Origin: an uncultured Alphaproteobacteria bacterium
Lineage (GTDB): Bacteria > Pseudomonadota > Alphaproteobacteria > Rs-D84
Assembly (NCBI GenBank): GCA_949082785.1
Contig: CARVLU010000004.1
Coordinates: 23,371-87,370 of the forward strand
DNA length: 64,000 bases
Direction of reading: 5' to 3'
The notes below the pieces were generated by a model. The model saw only the letters and a list, made by a program, of their open reading frames with translations. It was not told the origin of the DNA and did no database searches. Below, in pieces: positions 8,202 to 54,653 of this stretch. The translations under genes were made by a program, and so were the position numbers. Position 1 is the first letter of the stretch; each line of letters starts with the position of its first letter.

Positions 8202-9683
8202 TTAAAACGCGTACTTTACACCGATGTGCAAACCGAACGATTGCCATGTGGCGTATTTCAAAGAATTTGAAACATCTTCGGTATGCGCGGGAACCGTTTC
8301 CAAAATCGGCAGATTATTATCGTCCAAGATATACTGGCCATTTTCATCGACCAAATAATGGCTGTATTCTGCGATATATAATTTACCCGGGATGTTGCCC
8401 ACGTGGAAACAGTTTGTGTCAACCTTTAACGACAACTGCAACCGGTCGGACAATCTGTAATTGTATTCCATTTCTGCAATGTACGAATATGCACCCTTGC
8501 TTCCTTCGTCCAAGAAACTGGGGTTTTGTTGCCAATCGGTACGGTTGGGCCAAATCCCTTCGGATGAATATTTGGGCAAACCAAACTGGACATAGAAACG
8601 CAGCTTGTCGTTCAGTGTCATTTGCTTTTCCACCTCCAATCCGACGTAAAATCCAGACCACGTTGTGTTGTAAATATGGGTTGTCCCATCGATACGGACC
8701 ATGCCATCGCCACCGATGATGACGCAATCGCCCGGTTCCACGCCCCACGGAATGGTTCCCATCGCCGGGTCGTAATCACCGGTCACCAATTGATTCCCCA
8801 ATTCAAAGAACCCACTGCCGGGCGCCTGGACCAACTTGATATCTTCGGGCGACATACAGACCTGGTACCAATCGTCGGGTGCGGCGGTACCGACCGGCAA
8901 CGTATAATAATACCCGTTGGCGTCGCCATAGACATAATCCCCCTTGTCCGTCATTAATGGCAGATAAATCCCCGGATTGGGATAAATATGGTCGGACATT
9001 TCCAGATTATGCTTAAAGATTTCATAACCAATCGACGGCGACAATTTCCATCCGCCGATGTCCCACACATGATGGGCGCCCAAACCGATGCGCAAATGAT
9101 TGCTGCGCCCGGACATTTCCCCCATGGAAATGGTAAAAATCCCTTCGGCTGGTTTGGCGTGGTCAAACGGTTCCAAATCGTAATCCATGGACAACCCGCC
9201 ATGGTTTAAATCACCGTACGTGTATTCCCCGTATGCGAACAAATCGAAATTACGAATGGAAAAGTTATGGCGTGCACCGACCGTCAATTCGTTAAAGACC
9301 ATGTCATCCCATTCCAGGATGGAATTAACGCCGGTTTTAAATTGAAAATCCGCAAAGCGGCGCGAATACCCGGCATAGATGCTGGGGCCCTTTTCGGCAT
9401 CCGGCGGCAACGCAATGCCGTTGGTGGTCATGGTGCCGGCGATAATTGCCGATTGCGCGACGGGGCGCGGCACTTCGTACGATTGGCTGCGCGTACCGAC
9501 AACCTGTTTCTGGCCGGATTGACCCACATATTTGGTGTACCCCTGGCTGGCATACTGGCCATACCCCATCTGATTGGCGTTCTGGGTCTGGGTTTGATAG
9601 TAAACGGGCACCCCTTCCTGGGCGGCGATGGCGCCCCCAGACATCAGGATTATGGACAAGATTGCAAAAAAACGTGTATTCAT
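8202..9683 (-). CDS. outer-membrane beta-barrel protein (putative porin/major OMP)
   Basis: N-terminal signal peptide MNTRFFAILSIILMSGGAIAA, alternating amphipathic segments and C-terminal ...GLHIGVKYAF with terminal Phe, typical of OM beta-barrels. No specific family recognised. Confidence 0.5.
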   Translation of the reverse strand: MNTRFFAILSIILMSGGAIAAQEGVPVYYQTQTQNANQMGYGQYASQGYTKYVGQSGQKQVVGTRSQSYEVPRPVAQSAIIAGTMTTNGIALPPDAEKGPSIYAGYSRRFADFQFKTGVNSILEWDDMVFNELTVGARHNFSIRNFDLFAYGEYTYGDLNHGGLSMDYDLEPFDHAKPAEGIFTISMGEMSGRSNHLRIGLGAHHVWDIGGWKLSPSIGYEIFKHNLEMSDHIYPNPGIYLPLMTDKGDYVYGDANGYYYTLPVGTAAPDDWYQVCMSPEDIKLVQAPGSGFFELGNQLVTGDYDPAMGTIPWGVEPGDCVIIGGDGMVRIDGTTHIYNTTWSGFYVGLEVEKQMTLNDKLRFYVQFGLPKYSSEGIWPNRTDWQQNPSFLDEGSKGAYSYIAEMEYNYRLSDRLQLSLKVDTNCFHVGNIPGKLYIAEYSHYLVDENGQYILDDNNLPILETVPAHTEDVSNSLKYATWQSFGLHIGVKYAF

Positions 9684-13087: not shown

Positions 13088-13876
13088 ATGAAACACATCA
13101 TGATACGAATTGCCGGCGGCATGGTTGCGGCGTTTGGAATTATTGTCAATCGCGGTCATGCAGACGTGAATAATTGCACCACGTGGACGAACGAAACCGC
13201 GGGTAATTTAAATTACAAAAAATGTTCATACAACAGCGACGGCGGCGGGTATCGATACTTTGCCAGCTGGTCCAGTGTCCCCACCGGCAGCAATGCCTTG
13301 GCGCCGGCGCGCGAAACATGTATGAACGCCATGGGGACCATTGATTATCCGGGCTGCAAAAGTGGTCGCTGTAATCAGACCGGCATTGTCTGCGAAGATA
13401 CGGGGCTGCTGTTTTCTGTGGGCTGTTGCCTGGCCAGTCCGTCGTACGGCCAGCCCGGCGCATGCGCCACCAATGCCACGGGATGCCGCGTCCAGGTTAT
13501 GCCGATAGAGGCCGCAAATTACACCTACTATCGTTTTAACAGTTGTGCGAACGGTTATTACACCCCGACGAATTTGGGCGGGACATGCACCGGAACGTAT
13601 TCATCGTTGGAATCAATTACCGCCTGTTGCGCGCAATGTTCGGGATACCAAAACATCAACGGCCAATGGGTCACGGTCAACGGGGCGTCGGGATCAACAT
13701 CCGGCATATTTATCAATACGTCCACCACACCGGGCATGGGGATTACAACATGTTTGGCGTCAATGTCCCTGGGGCCCATCACCGCCAAAGACAACAGTGG
13801 CACGTACGATTTGATGGGATTTGTGGATGCAAACAACCCCGGTACATATACCAGTGGTTGTTATTATTCCGAATAA
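13088..13876 (+). CDS. secreted cysteine-rich protein (paralog family A)
   Basis: Signal peptide MKHIMIRIAGGMVAAFGIIVNRGHA; more than 20 Cys in CxxC / C...GYY arrangements; ends ...SGCYYSE. Ribosome-binding site ggggg 6 nt upstream. Confidence 0.6.
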   Translation: MKHIMIRIAGGMVAAFGIIVNRGHADVNNCTTWTNETAGNLNYKKCSYNSDGGGYRYFASWSSVPTGSNALAPARETCMNAMGTIDYPGCKSGRCNQTGIVCEDTGLLFSVGCCLASPSYGQPGACATNATGCRVQVMPIEAANYTYYRFNSCANGYYTPTNLGGTCTGTYSSLESITACCAQCSGYQNINGQWVTVNGASGSTSGIFINTSTTPGMGITTCLASMSLGPITAKDNSGTYDLMGFVDANNPGTYTSGCYYSE

Positions 13877-16443: not shown

Positions 16444-17229
16444 TTAGTCAGACAGGTGATACGTTTGGTCGTTGTATCGCACGTTGATTGATGCGGCCGC
16501 GCCCGACTTTAACACGCCATAGCATGTTTTGCCGCCATATCCAATGCGCAATGAAGGCGTGGTATATGCCACCGGATACAAATTAAACGTGCGCCCATTT
16601 CCGGTTTTTATTTTCCCAATTCCGGCCCCGCACAGGGGCACGCATGTGCCATCGTGATTGCCATAACCCGCGTCGCATTCCCATGGACAGTCGTTGGTCG
16701 GCGAACTGTCGGATTGTGCGGGCGTGCCGGCCCCGGTATAATGCGCATGTTCCGGCAGATTTGTGCATGGCCGGGCGTATCGGTACCACGTGTGCCATGT
16801 TGTCCCCACATATTGGGCCAAATAATATCCGGGGTTGGCCCGGTACCATAAAAATGCGGATTGGCCATTCCAGTAATCGGTGCCATTATACCAGCTTTCG
16901 ATATACAGTTCCCCATATGGGCTGGATATAAAGACACCTGCGAAACAATGTGCCGGCCAGATGGCCCCGTTTGTCGATGAACCGGGGTTCCACGACATCA
17001 GCCATGATTGTTGCGTCACCCGGTCCACCGGGTACAGTGTCGATACGAATCCGTACCAATCGGTCGTGTCCGTCGGACATGGATGTTGCGTGTCGTCACC
17101 GGGACAATAATACCCATCGACGCATTTTTCGCATGTGGTGCCGTTTAAATACATCCCCCCATCGCATACGCCCCATGCCACCGCCGGCATTCCCATCACG
17201 CACGCAATTGTCCATAAAACAAATTTCAT
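16444..17229 (-). CDS. secreted cysteine-rich protein (paralog family B)
   Basis: Signal peptide MKFVLWTIACVMGMPAVAWG from the ATG at 17229. Motifs CEKCVDGYYCPGDDTQHPCP and CPWECDAGYGNHDGTCVPLCG; W/Y-rich middle. Confidence 0.6.
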   Translation of the reverse strand: MKFVLWTIACVMGMPAVAWGVCDGGMYLNGTTCEKCVDGYYCPGDDTQHPCPTDTTDWYGFVSTLYPVDRVTQQSWLMSWNPGSSTNGAIWPAHCFAGVFISSPYGELYIESWYNGTDYWNGQSAFLWYRANPGYYLAQYVGTTWHTWYRYARPCTNLPEHAHYTGAGTPAQSDSSPTNDCPWECDAGYGNHDGTCVPLCGAGIGKIKTGNGRTFNLYPVAYTTPSLRIGYGGKTCYGVLKSGAAASINVRYNDQTYHLSD

Positions 17230-17243
17230 TGTTAACCCCGAAC

Positions 17244-17417
17244 AAAAAATAAAACCACCAGAAACGTTTCGGGTGGTTGGAGTTTTACAACAATTGAACG
17301 AATTGCGCGGTTTATTCAATGTATTCACCACACTCCAACCGACAAGATTGGAATGTTTATCGTCACACGGACGCGTTCAACGGGTTGTAAAGCCCCATGG
17401 CGCCATCGGCCACCACG
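17244..17417 (-). ncRNA. structured leader RNA, copy 2 (promoter GTGACA-17-TATAAT at 17424-17452; ggttggag/ctccaacc; terminator ccaccc..ggtgg-U)
   Basis: Minus-strand ggttggagtgtggtgaatacattgaataaaccgcgc...aaactccaaccacccgaaacgtttctggtggttttatttttt ending 15 nt before the start codon of the cysteine-rich gene. Confidence 0.45.
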
Positions 17418-33573: not shown

Positions 33574-34233
33574 GTGGCCGATAGGATAGAGCCGCCAATT
33601 TTACTGTCCAGACTGATGACATTTGTCTTTGCCGCCGCGCTGGTCGTGGTGGTGGTTTTGGTGGTCACACTGGCCAAAATGTTTCCGCTGAACCGGCCCC
33701 AAATTTTCTTTTTGACGACGCAGCCGCGTTCTGATTTGGAAATCCGACTGTACCCCATGACGCCGCGCGACGAAAACGTCGATATTTACAAGCGCAGCTT
33801 TATCAAGGAATATATCAAGGCCCGCAACGAAATCATCCCGAACGTCGGCGTCATGCGGCGCAAGTGGTCAAATACCGACGACGGCATCGTGAACATGTGG
33901 TCCACGCCCGATGTTTATGCCGCCCTGACCCAGACGGATTTGTGGACCGCGTACATGAACGACGTGCCCGATACGGAATTCTATTGTCCGGTGGAATTTG
34001 CGCCCAATGCCATCGCACCGCGTTCCGACGACACCTATGCGGTCAGTTTTACGTATTTTTGTACAAATAATAATGGACAGACCGATAAAAAAGATTATAC
34101 AATCGTAATCAGATTGGAATCTGACGAAAATCCAACCATTAAATGGGGGGACCGCCTGAACAACCCGCTGGGGATTCGCGTGGCCGAATATACGGTCGAA
34201 TCCGGGAACGGCGACCCATTGGACTTTAAATAA
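33574..34233 (+). CDS. virB8: type IV secretion system protein VirB8
   Basis: GTG start with aagggag ribosome-binding site; N-terminal TM; C-terminal NTF2-like domain ending ...NNPLGIRVAEYTVESGNG, which matches the VirB8 signature NPLGFQVSEYR. Confidence 0.85.
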   Translation: MADRIEPPILLSRLMTFVFAAALVVVVVLVVTLAKMFPLNRPQIFFLTTQPRSDLEIRLYPMTPRDENVDIYKRSFIKEYIKARNEIIPNVGVMRRKWSNTDDGIVNMWSTPDVYAALTQTDLWTAYMNDVPDTEFYCPVEFAPNAIAPRSDDTYAVSFTYFCTNNNGQTDKKDYTIVIRLESDENPTIKWGDRLNNPLGIRVAEYTVESGNGDPLDFK

Positions 34234-34274
34234 TACCGGCACCGTCAGAAGACACAGTAAGGAAAGGGACCATA

Positions 34275-35810
34275 ATGACTTTTTCAAAAGCATTGAAATT
34301 AAACGTATCCGTGATTTGCCTGGGGGCGTTGTGCTGTGCAATGCCGGCGACGGCCGCCGAATACGGGGTTCAGTCGGCGTGGGACAATCCCAACGCAAAC
34401 ATGGCCGCCGGCAGTATTAAGCCCGGCTATGCCCAACTGGCGTGGTCCGCGGGTAATGTTTTACCGATTAAATTGCGCAACGGCATGGTGACAATGGTCA
34501 CATTGCCCAACGGCGAACAAATCGCCGACGCCCAGATTGGGAACGGGGGCCTGTTTGATATCCAGGCGACCCAGGGCGAACGCACCATGTTCATCAGCCC
34601 CATGCCGGACAACTTGGGGTCGGACACAAACCTGATTGTGATTGGCAAATCGGGCAACGTTTATACATTTTATCTGCGCAGCGAACCTTCGAATTCCAGT
34701 GAAATTACACATTCCCAGGTGGACGTCGTCCTGGACGGCAACGCCAGTTTGCCGATGGCATCCGCGGCCAGCACCACATCCGGCGGCGGCATGAATTCGC
34801 TGTTTAAAAAGAAATCATCCACCCCATCGACCGTCGGCGTTGACGGCGAAGATTACGGTTGGATTAAATCGATGAAAATCGACCCGTCGGAATTCCGCTT
34901 TGACCTGGACATTTTTGTCCCCAATCCGGATGATTACGTCATTGCGCCCGAACGCGTATGGCGCGACCGCATTTTCACATACATTGATTTCGGGGACAAG
35001 GTTATTTCCATGACCCAGCGTCCCGTGGTATCCCTGTTGGTCGAAGGGGGCGAATCCCCGGTCGGATTCCGCACCGACGGCGAAGATGGGCGCCTGTTGA
35101 TTGTAGAAGCGGTGGGCGACATGGTCCTGCGCAGTGGCCAGCGTATTGTTTGCATTAAAAAGCGTGAAAAACCGTTCCTGATTGCGGATACCGCGTCCGT
35201 TATGGCCCTGGCAGAAGCGAACGTGGCCCAATCCATGATGTCCGGCCAATCGTTGAACAACATTGCATACAACGCCGACCTGGCCGCGATGAGTGGGTCT
35301 GTCAACAACTATACCACAACCCCGATGTTTTCTTACAACGGGGCGGCACCGCAACAAATGAACGCCGGCGTTTATGGCGGGTATTATGCGCCGACGGGAT
35401 ATAACGCACCGGCACCGACATCGTCTGGTGTTTCCATGTTGCCGACGCAACGCAACACGGCGGGCGCCTATTTACCCCAGACAAACATCCCATTGATTAC
35501 CAGCAACCAAACCGGCGTTGCGGTGGAATTGAAATCCGATACCTCGGTCAAGGCGTTAAATGATTACTGGACGGGTCTGCTGGCGAAATTCAGCGGCGAA
35601 GACGGCCAGGGTCTGCTGACCCCGTACAAAGACAGCGTATTCTTTGCTGTCGATGAACAGGGTGTGGGCGACCTGGGGGCGGATTCTTCGACGGCGCGCC
35701 TGTATCGTCTGCGCATTGGTCCGATGTCCGACATCGACACTGCCCAGCGTTTGTGCGACCAGATGCTGAAATTCAGCGGCACCAGCTGTCATGTCGTTCG
35801 CATCCAGTAA
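34275..35810 (+). CDS. virB9: VirB9/TrbG/CagX-family T4SS protein with ~230 aa C-terminal extension ending in a SPOR-like domain
   Basis: Signal peptide. VirB9 N-terminal domain (...VTMVTLPNGEQIADAQIGNGGLFDIQATQGERTMFISPM...TNLIVIGKSGNVYTFYL) and C-terminal beta-sandwich (...RIFTYIDFGD...GRLLIVEAVGDMVLRSGQRIVCI). Low-complexity N/Q/Y-rich linker, then ...VFFAVDEQG...RLYRLRIGPMSDIDTAQRLCDQMLKFSGTSCHVVRIQ (SPOR-like). Confidence 0.8.
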   Translation: MTFSKALKLNVSVICLGALCCAMPATAAEYGVQSAWDNPNANMAAGSIKPGYAQLAWSAGNVLPIKLRNGMVTMVTLPNGEQIADAQIGNGGLFDIQATQGERTMFISPMPDNLGSDTNLIVIGKSGNVYTFYLRSEPSNSSEITHSQVDVVLDGNASLPMASAASTTSGGGMNSLFKKKSSTPSTVGVDGEDYGWIKSMKIDPSEFRFDLDIFVPNPDDYVIAPERVWRDRIFTYIDFGDKVISMTQRPVVSLLVEGGESPVGFRTDGEDGRLLIVEAVGDMVLRSGQRIVCIKKREKPFLIADTASVMALAEANVAQSMMSGQSLNNIAYNADLAAMSGSVNNYTTTPMFSYNGAAPQQMNAGVYGGYYAPTGYNAPAPTSSGVSMLPTQRNTAGAYLPQTNIPLITSNQTGVAVELKSDTSVKALNDYWTGLLAKFSGEDGQGLLTPYKDSVFFAVDEQGVGDLGADSSTARLYRLRIGPMSDIDTAQRLCDQMLKFSGTSCHVVRIQ

Positions 35811-35856
35811 CGAATTTTTTGGGGACCGCGCGCACCGCGGCGGGGAACGGTAACAT

Positions 35857-38283
35857 ATGAATAAGATAGCCAAACAATTTTCCGACCTGCGTCAGACGAC
35901 GCCGAAACATATCCAGTGGTTATTGCTGGTGGCGGCGTTTGTGGTGGTGCTGATATTGTTGACGCTGTTGTTGCGTGGCCGCACGGAAAAAACGGACGTG
36001 GTGACGTTGCCCGATGACGAAAAATTAACACTGGCGGTGACCCCCGACAGTGTGGATTGGGCAAACACGACCGTCGGCACGAAAAAAACGCAAAAAATCA
36101 CGATTTCAACCACCGGCGCGGTAAAGATTGCGGCGGTGCGCCTGTCCCGGGAAGTTGCGGGCCTGGCCACGCCCAAAACGACATGCACCAACATGGGCGA
36201 AATCAATGACAAGATTTCATGCACCATCAGTTTGACGTACGAACCGACGGTCCCGATGGACACGACGGGCGTATCGTTGTTTGTGGATTGGCGCGGTGTG
36301 GACGCGCCGGACGGGATGACGCGCGCGGAAAAAATCCCGATGGCGCTGGGCGCGGTGTCGCCCACCCCGGTGATTCCACCGGCCCCAAAATCCGAACCGG
36401 CCCCCGCACCCGCGGCGCAGCCCGAACCCGACGTCGTCCCGGTTGTTGATATCGAACCGGCGCGCCCCCAGCCCAGCGCGCAGATTCAGCGTGACATCGA
36501 CACCATTGCGCCCCCGCTGCCCATGCTGGACAACAAATCGAATGCCAAACCCGCCCCCCAGGTTAATGCGGACGACGACATCACGGTGACAATATCTGAT
36601 GGCTGTTCTGATTTTTCATTCCCGGGCTATAACACATCGGGGCAACAGATTGGCTGGATTAAACCGGAACGCGGCGCGTATTATTTCTATCCCTTTGCCG
36701 ACCGCGAATGCAAAAACGCCACCGGGAAATATAATCCCGACAACGGCATTATCACGGCAATCAACAACCCGTCCCAGAAAATCGGCACGGACGCCGAACA
36801 CATTGGCCACACAACGATTTCGGGGGCCGCATTGCCCCAATTGTCCAACCCGGTTGCCAATTCAAACGTGAACCGTGCCCGCCAATTGACCAGTGCGGAA
36901 TTATCACAATCGATGTCGATGGGCACCGGCGCGGCCCAGGTTGCGCTGAAACCGGCGCCGGCATCTGATATTTTATACACGACATCCGACGCAAATGTGG
37001 TTGCATCGACCCAGCCGTACGACCGGTCGTTCATCCTGCGCCAATATAAACCGATTCCGGCCACAATCGTGTCCGATGTGCGCGCCGACACAACCCTGAT
37101 TAATGGCCAGCAATTCTTGCCCGTGCGCGCGACGGTGGACCGCAACGTGTATTCGGACAACGGTCGCACGGTTATCATCCCGACCGGGACATTGATGTTG
37201 GGGTATGTCACCGGCGAAGTGCCGGGCCCGTACAAGACCATTGGTCGTATGGAAATCAAATGGTACCAATTTGTTTTGCCCAATGGCGTTGAATTTAACT
37301 TTGGCGGCGCGACCGATCCGTTTTCCGGCGACGCCCAGGGTCGCATTGGCGTTCCCGGCCGGGGCAGTACGGATTACCTGGAACAATTCGTGATGCCGAT
37401 GCTGACCGCGATTGTGCCGGCGGCCGTCAATATGATTGCGCCCATTGCGGACAAATTCGTGAACCAAATCGATTTGGATAACAACACAGTTGTGCAATCG
37501 GGTACGGTCCGTTCGTCTGAATTGGCGAAAAATGAAATCATCACGGCCTGGAACCAGGTGGCCCAGAAATTAATGGTCGATATGATGGACAACACCACGC
37601 CCCCGTTCACGATTGCGGCCGGCACGCGCATTACGGTTTATTCGCCCCAGGATTTGGCGGTGGTCTGCATGGATAATTCCAAGAAATGTTCATTGCAACA
37701 TTTGAAAGAACAATCACCGACGGGCAACCCAATGCGTGCGACCCCATCGCCCAGCATTCGTGCGGCGGAAGACGATTCTTGGATTGGCCAGGTACGTTCG
37801 TTCAATTGGGCCGCCGAATACTGTTCGGATTACAAGGATGGTAAATTAAACCTGACCAACGCCCAGGTCCGAGAAATGAATTCCAAGGGGATTGATTACA
37901 ACACGGTTCTGTTCTATTGCCAGTCCAACCAGTACAAGGCGATTAACAACGCGAAACAGGACGCCGTCTTTAACAATCAACAGCAGACGTTCCAGAACAA
38001 TTACAACGTCAGCAACAACGGCACGGGTCTGACGGGGATATCGGGCGACCAAAGTTATAACGAAGATGTCTTGGGCTTGAAATACAATGACGACGGCACT
38101 ATACAAAATCCGTTCAACCAGACATTGCCCGTGGAAACACCGCCGGCAACCATCACCTGCGAAGATGGGACCAACCCGGATGCGAACGGTTGCTGTACGG
38201 GTGAAATATACACCGACATGGGGGACCAGGGATTTAACTGTTGTCCCGAAACCGGTGGCGACTGTTTTCCGCCGATATTATAA
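35857..38283 (+). CDS. virB10: VirB10/TrbI-family T4SS protein with ~180 aa C-terminal Cys/Asn-rich extension
   Basis: TM helix, Pro-rich region (PTPVIPPAPKSEPAPAPAAQPEPD). VirB10 core (IPATIVSDVRADTTLING..VRATVDRNVYSDNGRTVIIPTGTLMLGYV...GRMEIKWYQFVLPNGVEFNFGG...TRITVYSPQDLAV), then an extra tail ending CEDGTNPDANGCCTGEIYTDMGDQGFNCCPETGGDCFPPIL. Confidence 0.85.
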   Translation: MNKIAKQFSDLRQTTPKHIQWLLLVAAFVVVLILLTLLLRGRTEKTDVVTLPDDEKLTLAVTPDSVDWANTTVGTKKTQKITISTTGAVKIAAVRLSREVAGLATPKTTCTNMGEINDKISCTISLTYEPTVPMDTTGVSLFVDWRGVDAPDGMTRAEKIPMALGAVSPTPVIPPAPKSEPAPAPAAQPEPDVVPVVDIEPARPQPSAQIQRDIDTIAPPLPMLDNKSNAKPAPQVNADDDITVTISDGCSDFSFPGYNTSGQQIGWIKPERGAYYFYPFADRECKNATGKYNPDNGIITAINNPSQKIGTDAEHIGHTTISGAALPQLSNPVANSNVNRARQLTSAELSQSMSMGTGAAQVALKPAPASDILYTTSDANVVASTQPYDRSFILRQYKPIPATIVSDVRADTTLINGQQFLPVRATVDRNVYSDNGRTVIIPTGTLMLGYVTGEVPGPYKTIGRMEIKWYQFVLPNGVEFNFGGATDPFSGDAQGRIGVPGRGSTDYLEQFVMPMLTAIVPAAVNMIAPIADKFVNQIDLDNNTVVQSGTVRSSELAKNEIITAWNQVAQKLMVDMMDNTTPPFTIAAGTRITVYSPQDLAVVCMDNSKKCSLQHLKEQSPTGNPMRATPSPSIRAAEDDSWIGQVRSFNWAAEYCSDYKDGKLNLTNAQVREMNSKGIDYNTVLFYCQSNQYKAINNAKQDAVFNNQQQTFQNNYNVSNNGTGLTGISGDQSYNEDVLGLKYNDDGTIQNPFNQTLPVETPPATITCEDGTNPDANGCCTGEIYTDMGDQGFNCCPETGGDCFPPIL

Positions 38284-38308
38284 ACCCGCATCATGCGGGT
38301 TTATTTTT
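38284..38308 (+). terminator. intrinsic terminator after virB10
   Basis: acccgcatcatgcgggt hairpin + ttatttttgg. Confidence 0.5.
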
Positions 38309-38545
38309 GGATAACGTTTTTTTGACCATTAAAATTCGGGCACATTTATGTGCCCAAAATTTTATGGGCCGCTGGGCGGAATCTGGCACCGTGACGGCGC
38401 GATTCGACTGACCCGGATTAAATCAGCCCAGCGATATAGATTTCCGATTCGAACTTCAACCTTTGGTTGTAACGTTTTACAGGAAACTATTCTTAATCTA
38501 TATATTAAAAAGTCCGCAACATTTTTACCAACAAGGAGAGCAAGA

Positions 38546-38893
38546 ATGACACAACAAACCATGCAAACAACTATCCCGGCCGAAAAGTTTCAAAATGCGG
38601 AACAGCTGTGGTTTTGGTTTTTGTACGCACGCAGCGTACGAAACGGCTTTGTCCGGGGCCATATGACGTCCCAGCGTCGCATCTGCGAATTGCTGGACGT
38701 GGAAACATTGGTAACGAAACTGTATTTATCGGGCCGACTGACCGACGCCCAACTGTCCGTGATGAAGGAATTTGGTGACCGTCGCCGCGCCCCGCACCAA
38801 CACATCTGGGCCGAAAATAAAAAGGCAGAATTATGGCGCACCGCCATGTCCGTATTAAACGCCGCCGCCACGGCACGCGGTTGGATTGAATAA
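38546..38893 (+). CDS. hypothetical protein (115 aa)
   Basis: Strong ribosome-binding site aaggagag 7 nt upstream. MTQQTMQTTIPAEKFQNAEQLWFWFLYARSV... No family recognised. Confidence 0.45.
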   Translation: MTQQTMQTTIPAEKFQNAEQLWFWFLYARSVRNGFVRGHMTSQRRICELLDVETLVTKLYLSGRLTDAQLSVMKEFGDRRRAPHQHIWAENKKAELWRTAMSVLNAAATARGWIE

Positions 38894-47987: not shown

Positions 47988-49979
47988 TTGCATGGAATGG
48001 ATATAAATTCCTATACTTTATCCATGCGGGAATTTATCAGCGAACAATTTCAAAACCGTTTTCTGTGGGCGCCGTTTCTGATGGCGTTTGGTGCGGCGCT
48101 GTATTTCACGTTGAACGGTGAACCGCCACTGCCGTGCCCGGTGCTGTTTGCGATTGCGATGCTGGCGGGTGCATTCGCGCCACGCGTGCCGACATTGTTG
48201 CGTGGCATTTTACTGTTGGGGTTTGGATTTTGTTATGCGGCGGCGTTCACGCATGTTATCGACACACCGCAAATCACACGCAATTTGCGCGACCTGGAAA
48301 TTTCCGGTACAATCACAAAAATTGATTACACCGATACGAAAACACGCATCTATATCCGTATTCCGGCCAACCTGATTAACCGCGATATTTCCGAAAACCG
48401 CACGGCAACGGTTCGGGTGTCAATGTCTGAAATCCCGACGCCCGTGCACATCGGCGACACAATTGATGCGCGCGTCACACTGTTTCGTCCCGCATCCAGT
48501 TACATGCCCGAAACATTCGATTATGCCCGTTGGGCGTATTTCAACGGATTGTCCGCAACCGGCTTTGTCCAGGATTATTCGATTACATCCACACGCACAT
48601 ACAATATAAACACACTGCGCGATTATATTCACGGGAAATCCGATTCATTTCTGGCCGACACGCTGGTTCTGGGATATAAATCCGCATTACCGGATGACGA
48701 CCGCACAATTTGGACGACAAACGGTGTGGGTCACGTCTGGTCCATCAGTGGATTTCACATGACACTGGTGTCGGGTTGGTTGTTCGCATTCTTTTACCTA
48801 ATCTTTCGCACTATTGCACCCATAACGCGGCGCGTACCCGCACGGATTCCCGCCATGATTTGCGCATGGTTCGGACTGTTGTTTTATTTGTTCATATCGG
48901 GCGGCGGGATTGCGACCATTCGCGCGTTCTTGATGACGTCATTGGTATTTGCCGCATTTGTGTCGGGCCGCGAAGCCCTGTCGATGCGCAACATTTGCCT
49001 GGCGTTTTGTTTGATATTCCTGATTAATCCGCACTATGTGATGCAACCGGGATTTCAATTATCGTTTTCCGCGGTGTTCGGTTTGATTTGGTATTTCAGA
49101 AATTCCACATATCAAAAGCGCACAGTGATTCAGCGTATCCGTCGCGCCATCGCCGCCGCCGCAATGACATCCATTATCGCAACAATCTTTACCACGCCGT
49201 TTGTGGCCGCACATTTCTATCAATTCCCGACATATTCGTTGGTGGGTAATCTGATTTTGTTGCCACTGTTTTCAGTGGCGATTATGCCGCTGGTCATGCT
49301 GGGGACGGTGACGGCGACACTGGGATGGACGGGACCATTAATGTTGGCTGAAATGATTTATCACGGGGCGTTGGCGGTTGCGACGAAAATCGCGGCACTG
49401 CCACTGGCCGTCATTTTGACGCCACATATTCCAAACATCGCCATTGTGTTTATGATTGTGGGATTTCTGTGTTTGATGTTTATCCGCGCGACGCGTCCAA
49501 AAATAAATTACATCCTGTGCGCGTCATTTATCGGCATTGGTGTGGTGATAACCGCCCTGGCACCGCGGCCGATATTCTTTGCCACGCACGACCACGAATT
49601 AATCGCATTTGTTGCACCCGACGGCAAACTGGAATTTAACAAAGCCCGCGCATCCAACCACTTCTTTGCGTTCGACACGTGGAAGCAAATAAACACAGAA
49701 CCAACCGCAACACCAAATCGTCGCCGTAAATGCGTACGCGGTGTTTGCATATTTGAAACCCAAAATTGGACACTGGCATATACCCAGAAATTTGTGCCCA
49801 CCATGAACAACATTGCAAAATTCTGTCGTGACGAATCGATTGATTACATTGTGTCGTACTTTGACATCGACGCGCCGGGTTGCAATCACAAAATTTTGCG
49901 TGGCGCATTTTCAATTTACAAATCTGGTCGCGTGAAGTATCACGTTACGCGTCGGCCGTGGCATAATCCGCGCCGATAA
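47988..49979 (+). CDS. comEC: ComEC/Rec2 family competence protein (no metallo-beta-lactamase domain evident)
   Basis: DUF4131-like N-terminus plus competence domain (multi-TM; NGVGHVWSISGFHMTLVSGW). Confidence 0.8.
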   Translation: MHGMDINSYTLSMREFISEQFQNRFLWAPFLMAFGAALYFTLNGEPPLPCPVLFAIAMLAGAFAPRVPTLLRGILLLGFGFCYAAAFTHVIDTPQITRNLRDLEISGTITKIDYTDTKTRIYIRIPANLINRDISENRTATVRVSMSEIPTPVHIGDTIDARVTLFRPASSYMPETFDYARWAYFNGLSATGFVQDYSITSTRTYNINTLRDYIHGKSDSFLADTLVLGYKSALPDDDRTIWTTNGVGHVWSISGFHMTLVSGWLFAFFYLIFRTIAPITRRVPARIPAMICAWFGLLFYLFISGGGIATIRAFLMTSLVFAAFVSGREALSMRNICLAFCLIFLINPHYVMQPGFQLSFSAVFGLIWYFRNSTYQKRTVIQRIRRAIAAAAMTSIIATIFTTPFVAAHFYQFPTYSLVGNLILLPLFSVAIMPLVMLGTVTATLGWTGPLMLAEMIYHGALAVATKIAALPLAVILTPHIPNIAIVFMIVGFLCLMFIRATRPKINYILCASFIGIGVVITALAPRPIFFATHDHELIAFVAPDGKLEFNKARASNHFFAFDTWKQINTEPTATPNRRRKCVRGVCIFETQNWTLAYTQKFVPTMNNIAKFCRDESIDYIVSYFDIDAPGCNHKILRGAFSIYKSGRVKYHVTRRPWHNPRR

Positions 49980-54188: not shown

Positions 54189-54653
54189 ATGAAACATAAA
54201 TCAGTCTGGGTCGGGGTTGCGCTGTTGATACCGACCGGCATCCACGGGGCCACCTGGGTTACACCATCGTGTTGCAGCGAGAATACAATTGCGCCATCCA
54301 CCATCAAATGCAAAAGCGTCACCCGCAAAGTGGAATGCGGCGGCATAACAATCGTTGATTGCGGCGAATGCCAATCGGGATACAGCCCGTACCAGGCCAA
54401 AAAAACCGTTTGCAGCGGCGCCGCCCAACAAACCATCACATACCAGGATTGTATGCAAAACGTTGTCGTTTCGTGCAGCGTTGGTGAATACCAGGACGGA
54501 ATGCTGTGCGCCAAATGCCCGGACGGTGGAAAATCCGATATTGGCGCCACGTCCATCACCCAGTGTTATAAACCCAAATACGAAAACACGTTTTCCGATT
54601 CCACCGGCAGCGGGGTTACGGGGATGGATAATAACTGTTATTACACGAAATAA
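54189..54653 (+). CDS. secreted cysteine-rich protein (paralog family C)
   Basis: Signal peptide MKHKSVWVGVALLIPTGIHG; motifs CGECQSGYSPY and CAKCPDGG; ends NNCYYTK. ggagg ribosome-binding site. Confidence 0.6.
   Translation: MKHKSVWVGVALLIPTGIHGATWVTPSCCSENTIAPSTIKCKSVTRKVECGGITIVDCGECQSGYSPYQAKKTVCSGAAQQTITYQDCMQNVVVSCSVGEYQDGMLCAKCPDGGKSDIGATSITQCYKPKYENTFSDSTGSGVTGMDNNCYYTK

What the first reader, a model, noticed from the sequence alone, without database searches (positions are those of the whole stretch)
37660..38283. VirB10 with a ~180 aa C-terminal Cys/Asn/Gln-rich extension beyond the conserved core
The VirB10 core ends near ...TRITVYSPQDLAV, where most homologs terminate. The remaining sequence is N/Q-rich, carries 10 cysteines, and ends in CEDGTNPDANGCCTGEIYTDMGDQGFNCCPETGGDCFPPIL.
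Its composition echoes the cysteine-rich secreted proteins elsewhere in the window. It could be a surface-exposed or ligand-binding appendage of the channel protein, loosely comparable to CagY-type elaborations.
Basis: partly seen in the sequence, partly recalled or inferred. Interest (0 to 1): 0.55.

Follow-up and report, generated by a model that had tools for sequence, protein, structure and literature searches.

The report
VirB10 channel protein with cysteine-knob tail
A secretion-channel protein (VirB10) of an uncultured, small-genome gut bacterium really does carry a conserved ~185-residue cysteine-rich tail, and its last 41 residues are an undescribed mini-domain that the same bacteria also attach to several unrelated envelope proteins, which suggests a shared docking knob rather than a one-off oddity.

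Summary
ORF 35857-38283 (+) encodes an 808-aa VirB10/TrbI protein. Its conserved barrel ends at about aa 601, and canonical VirB10 proteins stop at about aa 623. The rest is in frame, ends at a terminator hairpin, and is not a frameshift. More than 120 full-length relatives, and 78 of 80 species-level genomes of Candidatus Enterousia-like gut Alphaproteobacteria, keep one continuous ORF. All 10 tail cysteines are conserved.

The tail is composite. Residues 602-767 occur only in VirB10. They hold a Cys loop, a GQVRSF motif, an N/Q-rich helical subdomain and a YNE...NPF motif. Residues 768-808 form a six-cysteine module, C-x10-CC-x14-CC-x6-C-FPP. It is the most conserved part of the protein (86% identity) and matches no Pfam or NCBIfam family.

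The same module ends at least three other protein types in this lineage: bitopic inner-membrane proteins, signal-peptide proteins with 1-3 copies, and 60-135-aa proteins. Some are encoded in the same MAGs.

My best reading is inferred, not shown. The tail is a disulfide-stabilised periplasmic appendage, and its terminal knob docks the secretion-system outer-membrane core to a common envelope partner. Surface adhesin, sorting tag and metal-binding readings remain open. I rate it a new variant of a known kind, of moderate interest.

The parts
33574..34233 (+). virB8, the first gene of the three-gene operon
   Evidence: Pfam VirB8 PF04335, E 9e-14. The same order is seen in relatives L012 and L073.
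34275..35810 (+). virB9/CagX-type gene of 511 aa, with a ~200-aa C-terminal extension ending in a SPOR-like domain
   Evidence: Pfam CagX PF03524, E 4e-21. SPOR hit at aa 471-509 scores 20.5 bits, just under the cutoff of 21. The L073 ortholog scores 21.3 bits.
35857..38283 (+). virB10 ORF, 808 aa plus stop codon
35857..35976 (+). N-terminal cytoplasmic helix and single transmembrane helix (aa 1-40)
   Evidence: AF2 predicts helices 2-14 and 17-40. The hydrophobic stretch WLLLVAAFVVVLILLTLLL is nearly invariant.
36025..36357 (+). Ig-like (ASH/PapD-like) beta-sandwich, aa 57-167, with conserved C110 and C122
   Evidence: pLDDT above 90. Foldseek hits CEP192/HYDIN ASH domains at E 7e-5 to 1e-4. 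Pfam ASH and NCBIfam choice-of-anchor D hits are below cutoff.
36358..36597 (+). Pro-rich linker, aa 168-247 (24% Pro)
   Evidence: Only 26% identity among relatives.
36598..36810 (+). Small conserved beta domain, aa 248-318, with invariant C250 and C285 and no known family
   Evidence: pLDDT 85-91. 70% identity among relatives. No Pfam hit at E up to 10.
37012..37659 (+). TrbI/VirB10 beta-barrel with a two-helix antenna (helices at aa 504-539 and 553-578)
   Evidence: Pfam and NCBIfam hits, AF2 model, Foldseek hits to VirB10-family structures. 83% identity among relatives.
37660..38157 (+). VirB10-specific part of the tail, aa 602-767. It holds the Cys loop C604-C611, the GQVRSF motif (aa 644-649), a helical N/Q-rich subdomain (aa 650-716, with C656 and C688), a variable Gly-rich loop, the YNEDVLGLKY...NPF motif (aa 732-753) and a variable linker.
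   Evidence: This part is found only together with a VirB10 core or in fragments of such genes.
38158..38280 (+). Terminal 41-aa six-cysteine module (aa 768-808): C-x10-CC-x14-CC-x6-C-FPPIL, net charge -8
   Evidence: pLDDT about 84, two beta-hairpins. 86% identity among relatives.
38280..38314 (+). Intrinsic-terminator-like hairpin (11-bp stem) followed by a T run, overlapping the stop codon. It marks the end of the virB8-9-10 transcription unit.

Best explanation
Shown: the tail is a real, vertically inherited part of VirB10 in a whole clade of uncultured gut Alphaproteobacteria with reduced genomes (Candidatus Enterousia and relatives). It is built from two pieces.

1. A VirB10-specific stretch of about 165 aa. 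It holds a Cys loop, the GQVRSF motif, a helical N/Q-rich subdomain with a probable C656-C688 disulfide, and the YNE...NPF motif.
2. A 41-aa six-cysteine terminal module joined by a variable linker. The same module also ends at least three unrelated classes of extracytoplasmic proteins in the same lineage.

Inferred: all 14 cysteines of the protein lie beyond the membrane helix and come in an even number. I therefore take the tail to fold in the periplasm with five disulfides, as a stalk plus a small beta-hairpin knob. The knob would work as a generic docking module, functionally like a dockerin or the TonB/TolA C-terminal domain. It would attach whatever carries it to one common envelope partner. 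On VirB10, about 14 knobs would form an extra ring that anchors or braces the outer-membrane core complex. Other type IV systems give that role to separate subunits (VirB7 and its N0 domain, CagT/Cag3/CagM), and no such gene lies in this operon.

My estimates: real composite architecture about 0.95; periplasmic location about 0.65; docking function about 0.4.
For: Continuity and conservation:
- There are 870 homologs, and the best 120 all cover 100% of the query at 780-850 aa.
- 78 of 80 GTDB species genomes have one frame holding both barrel and module.
- A terminator hairpin sits at the stop codon.
- GC3 of the tail is like the rest of the gene.

Cysteines:
- They are invariant across the alignments.
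- C656 and C688 are lost only together, in the three most distant members.

Module promiscuity:
- A profile search of 1.84 billion representatives found 255 proteins. In most of them only the last ~45 profile positions match, at the extreme C-terminus.
- The architectures fall into four classes, with the module ending 0-6 residues from the C-terminus and 1-3 copies per protein.
- Module proteins are encoded in the same MAGs as the tailed VirB10: JAIDWS01 (L007 and L088), JAZRJE01 (L028 and L090), and locus-tag prefix K2L94 (P0004 and P0275).

Predicted fold:
- The module has pLDDT about 84 with two hairpins. The helical subdomain has pLDDT about 77.

Conserved partner:
- The module is the most conserved region of the protein, at 0.86 identity against 0.83 for the barrel.
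- Carriers include inner-membrane-anchored proteins with long acidic or Pro-rich linkers (class B and VirB10 itself), an architecture typical of periplasm-spanning tethers.

Missing accessory genes:
- No VirB7-like gene lies upstream of virB8; the neighbours are tRNA-Trp, secE and nusG.
- VirB9 carries its own SPOR-like extension.
Against: - No partner was identified, and no interaction was tested.
- The position of the VirB10 C-terminus within the assembled ring was not checked against coordinates.
- AF2 confidence for most of the tail is modest (mean pLDDT 64-66), and only monomers were modelled.
- Disulfide formation is assumed. The lineage is reported to lack respiratory chains (PMC12306168), and no Dsb or VKOR gene was seen in the window. 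The cysteines could instead bind metal.
- Class D proteins (a membrane helix or signal peptide followed almost directly by the module) could not reach an outer-membrane partner if they stay anchored.
- Module genes are not next to the T4SS genes in any of 80 genomes.
Whether the machine is complete is unknown.
Confidence: 0.45

Rival explanations
1. Surface-exposed adhesin or ligand-binding tip. The tails would reach the cell surface and bind a host or partner-cell ligand, serving cell-cell contact in a bacterium suspected to depend on a partner.
For: - The lineage has reduced genomes and a suspected partner-dependent lifestyle (PMC12306168).
- The knob weakly resembles eukaryotic-type extracellular mini-domains. 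The top Foldseek hits are granulin, EGF and knottin folds, all non-significant at E of 1.6 or more.
- The window also encodes other Cys-rich secreted proteins.
- The acidic D/E/N/G-rich loops could bind Ca2+ or a glycan.
Against: - The tip is the most conserved part of the protein (86% identity), unlike typical exposed, host-facing tips.
- The chain leaves the barrel after the antenna helices. A route for 14 disulfide-bonded tails across the outer membrane is not evident.
- The module also sits on very short membrane-anchored proteins and on inner-membrane proteins.
Confidence: 0.2
2. C-terminal sorting or processing tag. A lineage-specific export or attachment machinery would recognise the module, as with T9SS CTDs, PEP-CTERM or GlyGly-CTERM, and might remove it.
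For: - The module is almost always within 0-6 residues of the C-terminus, on proteins with unrelated N-terminal parts, and is restricted to one lineage.
- Class C and D module genes always lie directly downstream of lolCE-lolD and a ~450-aa lipoprotein with a faint STN (secretin/TonB N-terminal) hit.
Against: - Tandem internal copies exist: 3 in P0137 and 2 in at least 13 other representatives.
- The module has no hydrophobic helix or basic tail.
- There are no NCBIfam or Pfam hits at E up to 1-10, and I expect those libraries to include the known sorting-signal models.
- VirB10 is a structural ring subunit.
- The ABC genes next to the module genes are the housekeeping Lol system (TIGR02212, 428 bits), so the linkage may be incidental.
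Confidence: 0.1
3. Metal-binding or redox-sensing cysteine cluster. The CC pairs would coordinate Zn, Cu or Fe, or stay reduced, and would modulate channel gating rather than form structural disulfides.
For: - The organisms are gut anaerobes reported to lack respiratory chains (PMC12306168), which makes DsbB-type oxidation uncertain.
- The CC-x14-CC spacing and flanking acidic residues are compatible with metal sites.
Against: - Cysteine numbers are even in every domain (2, 2, 2, 2, 6), and C656 and C688 are lost as a pair. Both are typical of disulfides.
- There are no His partners.
- The AF2 beta-hairpin stack and the weak granulin/EGF/knottin-like hits point to a disulfide-ladder mini-domain.
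Confidence: 0.1
4. Artefact: a sequencing frameshift or assembly fusion joined VirB10 to an unrelated downstream ORF.
For: - Some database entries consist of the tail alone (P0123, P0127, P0131).
- One 1.26-kb contig (L087) has stop codons upstream of a tail-like ORF.
Against: - Hundreds of independent assemblies give the same continuous ORF.
- 78 of 80 species genomes have one frame.
- The checked tail-only entry P0127 starts 45 nt from a contig end.
- Codon-position GC is continuous across the junction.
Confidence: 0.01

Closest known systems
Canonical VirB10/TrbI (A. tumefaciens VirB10, pKM101 TraF, R388 TrwE, X. citri VirB10, H. pylori ComB10)
   Same: - N-terminal cytoplasmic segment, one transmembrane helix and a Pro-rich linker.
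- C-terminal beta-barrel with a two-helix antenna.
- Encoded after virB8 and virB9.
   Different: - About twice the length of a canonical VirB10.
- Two extra periplasmic domains before the barrel: an Ig-like ASH fold and a small Cys-containing beta domain.
- About 185 aa after the point where canonical proteins stop.
- virB11 and virD4 do not follow.
- It scores far below the NCBIfam VirB10 equivalog cutoff, 61.8 against 220 bits.
CagY (H. pylori Cag T4SS VirB10 homolog)
   Same: It is also a VirB10 homolog greatly enlarged by lineage-specific additions. It gives the best PDB sequence and fold matches to the barrel.
   Different: - CagY's additions are repeat regions N-terminal to the VirB10 domain (PMC13507270). 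From my own knowledge, these are encoded by recombining DNA repeats.
- This tail is C-terminal and single-copy, with no DNA repeats and no sequence similarity to CagY outside the barrel.
Accessory decorations of T4SS core complexes supplied by other subunits (X. citri VirB7 C-terminal extension, VirB8 AQGP extension; Cag CagT/Cag3/CagM)
   Same: These are lineage-specific extra mass around the VirB7-9-10 outer-membrane core (PMC6536674, PMC13507270). This is the role I infer for the tail.
   Different: Those additions sit on separate proteins or on VirB7/VirB8, not at the VirB10 C-terminus. There is no sequence relation. The equivalence is functional inference only.
Docking modules at protein C-termini (dockerin-cohesin; TonB and TolA C-terminal domains)
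   Same: A small C-terminal module, preceded by a flexible linker, is reused on many unrelated extracytoplasmic proteins of one organism. VirB10 is itself a TonB-like periplasm-spanning protein (established knowledge).
   Different: There is no sequence or fold match. Dockerins are Ca-binding helical modules without disulfides. No cohesin-like partner is known here. This is an analogy of logic, not family membership.
Small disulfide-rich beta-hairpin domains (granulin, EGF-like, knottins)
   Same: The cysteine pattern C...CC...CC...C, the CCP motif and a predicted stack of beta-hairpins. These folds are the top Foldseek hits for the tail model.
   Different: All hits are non-significant (E of 1.6 or more, probability 0.16 or less). 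The cysteine spacing differs. The module is bacterial and lineage-restricted, and Pfam finds nothing.

Membership tests
VirB10/TrbI family (Pfam PF03743) | TrbI domain match above the curated cutoff | tested here: met
   67.9 bits against a cutoff of 35, aa 396-600.
VirB10/TrbI family (Pfam PF03743) | Beta-barrel fold with a helical antenna, as in solved VirB10 structures | tested here: met
   AF2 model with helices at aa 504-539 and 553-578. Foldseek E 1.7e-7 to 3e-5 against CagY, TrwE, X. citri VirB10, ComB10 and TraF.
VirB10/TrbI family (Pfam PF03743) | Bitopic topology: N-terminal transmembrane helix followed by a Pro-rich periplasmic linker | tested here: met
   Helix at aa 17-40. Linker at aa 168-247 with 24% Pro.
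VirB10/TrbI family (Pfam PF03743) | Encoded with virB8 and virB9 | tested here: met
   VirB8 and CagX/VirB9 lie directly upstream. The order is conserved in L012 and L073.
Complete P-type (VirB/D4) type IV secretion system | VirB4, VirB11 and VirD4 ATPases and VirB6, encoded with or near virB8-10 | tested here: not met
   tblastn with the Agrobacterium proteins found none in the window or in 1.04 Mb of related loci. They may lie elsewhere in the genomes, which could not be searched.
NCBIfam T4SS_VirB10 equivalog (NF038091) | Score at or above the curated cutoff of 220 bits | tested here: not met
   61.8 bits. It is a divergent family member, not an equivalog.
CagY-type elaborated VirB10 | Large repeat regions N-terminal to the VirB10 domain, encoded by DNA repeats | tested here: not met
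   No tandem repeats in 35800-38400 apart from a 19-nt chance match. The extension is C-terminal.
Known C-terminal sorting domains (T9SS CTD, PEP-CTERM, GlyGly-CTERM, LPXTG) | Match to the curated models; a single terminal copy; a hydrophobic helix plus basic tail for the sortase-like classes | tested here: not met
   No NCBIfam or Pfam hit for the tail or for five other module proteins at E up to 1-10. That these libraries carry models for each named sorting domain is my expectation, not something I checked. The module is acidic, with no hydrophobic stretch. Tandem internal copies exist.
Granulin / EGF-like / knottin mini-domains | Significant sequence or fold match and the family's cysteine spacing | tested here: inconclusive
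   Only weak Foldseek hits (E of 1.6 or more). No Pfam hit. Disulfide connectivity could not be read because no model coordinates are available.
New 'C-x10-CC-x14-CC-x6-C-[FY]PP' C-terminal module (defined here) | 41-aa six-Cys pattern within 0-6 residues of the C-terminus of an extracytoplasmic protein | tested here: met
   The HMM built from 195 unique modules scores the window protein at E 5e-23. The pattern is present in all 120 VirB10 relatives and in about 125 non-VirB10 representatives.

The most novel reading that the evidence does not exclude
The 41-aa module would be a lineage-wide address tag of the dockerin type. It would assemble three things onto one common envelope or surface scaffold: the type IV secretion outer-membrane ring, a bitopic inner-membrane protein, and small secreted proteins encoded in the Lol operon. 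That scaffold would be a dedicated cell-contact organelle of these reduced-genome, probably partner-dependent gut bacteria. Acidic ('PD') and lysine-bearing ('PN-K') module subtypes might pair with each other.
Probability: 0.15. Interest if true: 0.8.

Novelty: new variant of a known kind. Interest (0 to 1): 0.55.

Why it matters
VirB10 is the subunit that spans both membranes and gates type IV secretion channels. Known elaborations, such as CagY, sit before the barrel. I found no description of a conserved, cysteine-rich C-terminal domain after the barrel in the literature searches I ran.

Here the elaboration defines a whole order-level clade of very common but uncultured gut Alphaproteobacteria. 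Their genomes of 0.7-1.6 Mb lack respiration and many transporters, and they may live off partner cells (PMC12306168). That such small genomes keep an 808-aa VirB10 with three extra domains, in a fixed core-genome position, suggests the apparatus matters to their lifestyle.

The terminal module is an undescribed protein domain with a clear, testable property: it should have a common partner. It gives a handle, as bait or epitope, for studying the envelope of organisms nobody has cultured.

Tried and rejected
- **Module copies elsewhere in the window.** I tried regular expressions and an HMM over all six frames and found none.
- **Family assignment for the tail.** Pfam at E up to 10 and NCBIfam at E up to 1 found nothing relevant. 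The only hit was an AbpA-like match at E 0.054, which I took as chance.
- **Fold search with the tail-only model.** Nothing was significant. The model itself has low confidence, pLDDT 64.
- **PDB sequence searches.** Only the barrel matches.
- **A MacB-type exporter for module proteins.** I considered this because module genes follow an FtsX/MacB_PCD permease and an ABC ATPase. I rejected it as the main reading once NCBIfam identified them as LolCE/LolD.
- **Module genes or other T4SS genes near virB10 in 80 genomes.** None were found.
- **Tail-only database entries as evidence of a split gene.** P0127 is a contig-end fragment. P0131 (L087) has stop codons and AT-rich sequence upstream on a 1.26-kb contig, and I left it unresolved.
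- **Literature.** Searches for a VirB10 C-terminal extension, for RF32/Rs-D84 T4SS, and for the position of the VirB10 C-terminus gave nothing usable.
- **Foreign origin of the tail.** GC3 gave no sign of it.
- **dN/dS.** I did not attempt it because synonymous sites are saturated at 50-60% protein identity.
Full report
**1. What is in the sequence**

ORF 35857-38283 on the + strand is a single 808-codon frame. Pfam places a TrbI/VirB10 domain at aa 396-600, covering profile positions 4-186 of 188, at 67.9 bits against a cutoff of 35. NCBIfam gives VirB10, ComB10 and TrbI models as best hits, all well below their equivalog cutoffs.

The flagged interval 37660-38283 is aa 602-808. It holds 10 cysteines (604, 611, 656, 688, 768, 779, 780, 795, 796, 803). 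It is enriched in N (11.6%) and Q (7.2%) and ends with the quoted sequence.

A strong terminator-like hairpin (11-bp stem plus T run) lies at 38280-38304 and overlaps the stop codon. There are no tandem DNA repeats. GC3 of the tail (0.64, and 0.56 for the short module) is close to the rest of the gene (0.69-0.70). ORFs on the opposite strand are short and show nothing notable.

**2. Where canonical VirB10 ends**

A tblastn search against 72,556 plasmids gave 440 VirB10/TrbI matches. None covers the query beyond aa 638, and none covers more than 35% of it. In Agrobacterium plasmid pAtCFBP5499c, virB10 stops four codons after the residue aligned to query aa 619, and virB11 overlaps its end. PDB searches match only the barrel. 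The window protein therefore continues for about 185 residues beyond the usual stop.

**3. The tail is conserved, not an artefact**

The word-indexed search returned 870 homologs. The best 120 all cover 100% of the query at 776-848 aa and 55-98% identity. They come from gut metagenomes and from MAGs labelled Alphaproteobacteria.

A scan of GTDB species genomes with the tail profile found 343 relatives. The 80 best include many Candidatus Enterousia MAGs and 'uncultured Rickettsiales/Alphaproteobacteria' from human, mouse, ruminant, horse and chicken gut. In 78 of the 80 loci, a single stop-free frame of at least 700 aa holds both the barrel motif and the terminal module. The other two are contig-end fragments.

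All 10 tail cysteines are invariant in a 29-sequence alignment. In a 67-sequence alignment reaching 44% identity, eight stay invariant. C656 and C688 are missing only in the three most distant members, and always together. That is the pattern expected of a disulfide pair.

Mean identity to the window protein by region:

| Region | Identity |
|---|---|
| Terminal module | 0.86 |
| Barrel | 0.83 |
| YNE...NPF motif | 0.73 |
| Middle beta domain | 0.70 |
| Rest of the tail | 0.29-0.52 |
| Pro-rich linker | 0.26 |

**4. Anatomy of the whole protein**

The full-length AF2 model used 67 sequences and has mean pLDDT 66.5. From N- to C-terminus it shows:

- A cytoplasmic helix and a transmembrane helix (aa 2-40).
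- A confident beta-sandwich at aa 59-167 (pLDDT above 90). Foldseek matches it to ASH/PapD-like Ig domains.
- A disordered Pro-rich linker (aa 178-246).
- A confident small beta domain at aa 250-312, with invariant C250 and C285 and no known family.
- A second disordered stretch.
- The barrel with two long antenna helices. Foldseek matches it at E 1e-7 to 3e-5 to CagY, TrwE, X. citri VirB10, ComB10 and TraF.
- The tail.

Within the tail the model shows a short hairpin at the C604-C611 loop, then a low-confidence stretch containing the invariant GQVRSF motif. Next come helices between aa 650 and 715 (pLDDT about 77), a variable Gly-rich loop, the conserved YNEDVLGL...NPF stretch and a variable linker. 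Finally there are two beta-hairpins at aa 783-797 inside the module (pLDDT about 84). The tail-only model agrees.

All 14 cysteines of the protein lie beyond the membrane helix, grouped as 2, 2, 2, 2 and 6.

**5. The key new finding: the last 41 residues are a promiscuous module**

I searched 1.84 billion representative proteins with a profile of the tail. It found 255 hits at E up to 1e-3. For most of them, only profile positions ~160-206 match, and the match sits at the extreme C-terminus of proteins of very different sizes.

Inspection and classification of 149 representatives gives four architectures:

- **Class A:** VirB10 proteins.
- **Class B:** bitopic proteins of 635-850 aa. They have a large cytoplasmic coiled-coil region, one transmembrane helix at about aa 420-550, a long acidic or Pro-rich linker and the module.
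- **Class C:** signal-peptide proteins of 170-285 aa. They have a conserved two-Cys helical hairpin and one to three modules.
- **Class D:** proteins of 60-135 aa, made of a hydrophobic N-terminus followed almost directly by the module.

The consensus is C-x-D-G-x-x-P-[DN]-x-x-G-C-C-x-G-E-x-[YF]-[TK]-D-[ML]-G-x-x-x-F-x-C-C-P-x-x-G-G-[DE]-C-[FY]-P-P-[ILM]. It ends 0-6 residues from the C-terminus in all but two cases. By contrast, residues 602-767 occur only with a VirB10 core or in gene fragments.

Neither Pfam nor NCBIfam recognises the module. Foldseek with the tail model gives only non-significant hits, the best being granulin, EGF-like and knottin folds.

Two subtypes exist. A strongly acidic 'PD' type (net -6 to -8) is found on VirB10 and on classes B and D. 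A lysine-bearing 'PN-K' type (net -1 to -4) is typical of the last module of class C proteins.

**6. Genomic context**

In the window, virB8 (33574-34233), virB9 (34275-35810) and virB10 form a compact unit. On one side lie tRNA-Trp, secE, nusG, rplKAJL and two long ORFs that I take to be rpoB and rpoC from their size and position; I did not scan them. On the other side lie a 181-aa ORF with no family, yidC and lspA. This is core chromosome. The same placement is seen in distant relatives (L012 and L073).

There is no VirB7-like lipoprotein gene upstream.

The module genes are elsewhere:

- A class B gene sits next to gcrA (L001).
- All five class C and D genes I looked up lie in one conserved operon-like cluster: ftsQ-ftsA (opposite strand), a 107-aa gene, a ~450-aa lipoprotein gene, lolCE, lolD, a membrane-protein gene, then class C and/or class D genes.
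- Two MAGs (JAIDWS01 and JAZRJE01) provide both a tailed VirB10 locus and such a cluster. The locus-tag prefix K2L94 links a third pair.

One genome therefore carries the module on several envelope proteins.

**7. The organisms**

A 2025 study describes Candidatus Enterousia and the order Rs-D84. It reports genomes of roughly 0.7-1.6 Mb without a TCA cycle, respiratory chains or standard nutrient transporters. It reports many hypothetical membrane proteins and a suspected partner-dependent lifestyle (PMC12306168). It does not mention secretion systems. I found no paper on a T4SS in this group or on a C-terminal extension of VirB10.

The window's own protein is 98% identical to a cluster seen on up to 75 contigs, so this is a common gut organism. 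Its exact placement within the clade was not determined.

**8. Interpretation**

Shown:

- The tail is genuine, conserved and composite.
- Its tip is an undescribed module reused on other extracytoplasmic proteins of the same genomes.

Inferred:

- *Disulfides and compartment.* Even cysteine counts, the paired loss of C656 and C688, and a position beyond the membrane helix point to disulfide-bonded folding in the periplasm.
- *A conserved partner.* The tip is more conserved than the barrel and sits after a variable linker. That fits a knob binding a conserved partner better than a host-exposed tip.
- *A docking role.* Carriers include periplasm-spanning, membrane-anchored proteins. This recalls the logic of TonB/TolA C-terminal domains and of dockerins.
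- *An extra ring.* On a ~14-mer VirB10 ring the tails would add about 14 x 185 residues. They could provide in cis the bracing or anchoring that VirB7 and other accessory proteins provide in trans elsewhere. VirB9 here also has its own SPOR-like extension.

None of these steps was tested. The rivals remain open: surface adhesin, sorting tag, and metal or redox site. I give them about 0.2, 0.1 and 0.1. The artefact reading is effectively excluded.

**9. Verdict**

The finding is real and the observation accurate.

It is a new variant of a known kind: a VirB10 with an unprecedented C-terminal domain and a new small module. Interest is moderate (0.55). It would rise if the module proves to be a lineage-wide docking system tied to cell-cell contact.

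Noticed in passing
window 34275-35810 (+): VirB9/CagX is 511 aa, about 200 aa longer than usual. The extra C-terminal part ends in a SPOR-like (septal peptidoglycan-binding) domain. It scores 20.5 bits against a cutoff of 21 here and 21.3 bits in the L073 ortholog.
   Followed up: partly
window 36025-36357 and 36598-36810 (+), inside virB10: Two further lineage-specific periplasmic domains lie before the barrel. One is an ASH/PapD-like Ig fold (pLDDT above 90) with C110 and C122. The other is a small beta domain with invariant C250 and C285 and no known family.
   Followed up: partly
window 33574-38283 and flanks; L012, L073 and 78 other loci: virB8-9-10 is an isolated three-gene unit at a fixed core-genome site, between tRNA-Trp/secE/nusG and yidC. 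No VirB4, VirB6, VirB11 or VirD4 lies within reach in any of 80 genomes. Whether the rest of a T4SS exists elsewhere is unknown.
   Followed up: partly
L003 2166-9106; L088 4650-9555; L090, L091, L092: A conserved cluster lies next to ftsQA in relatives: a 107-aa gene, a ~450-aa lipoprotein gene (faint STN hit), lolCE, lolD, a Cys-containing membrane-protein gene, then one or two genes for proteins ending in the same six-Cys module. The cluster is not present in the 64-kb window.
   Followed up: partly
L001 8001-10160 (P0159) and about 25 related clusters: A family of ~700-aa bitopic proteins has a conserved cytoplasmic N-terminal and coiled-coil region, one transmembrane helix, a long acidic linker and the six-Cys module. 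It is encoded next to gcrA and has no known family.
   Followed up: no
window 13088-13876 (+), 16444-17331 (-), 54189-54653 (+): Three signal-peptide proteins are very rich in cysteine, up to 8.4%. One has a faint TNFR/furin-like repeat hit. They are unrelated to the VirB10 module and have no family assignment.
   Followed up: partly
window 8202-9683 (-): A 493-aa signal-peptide protein matches the Protochlamydia outer membrane protein (Pom) family at E 3e-11. This is unexpected for an alphaproteobacterium.
   Followed up: no
window 38348-38893 (+): A 181-aa ORF lies directly after the virB10 terminator, with no Pfam or NCBIfam match. Whether it is a real gene, or is conserved in relatives, was not checked.
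   Followed up: no
L087 1-1042: A 1.26-kb metagenome contig carries a tail-plus-module ORF preceded by AT-rich sequence with stop codons instead of a VirB10 barrel. It could be a misassembly, a pseudogene or a free-standing tail gene.
   Followed up: partly
window 47988-49979 (+): A ComEC competence-channel gene lies about 10 kb from the virB genes. The barrel also scores against the ComB10 (DNA-uptake T4SS) model at E 1e-13. A DNA-uptake role for the VirB8-10 proteins was not examined.
   Followed up: no
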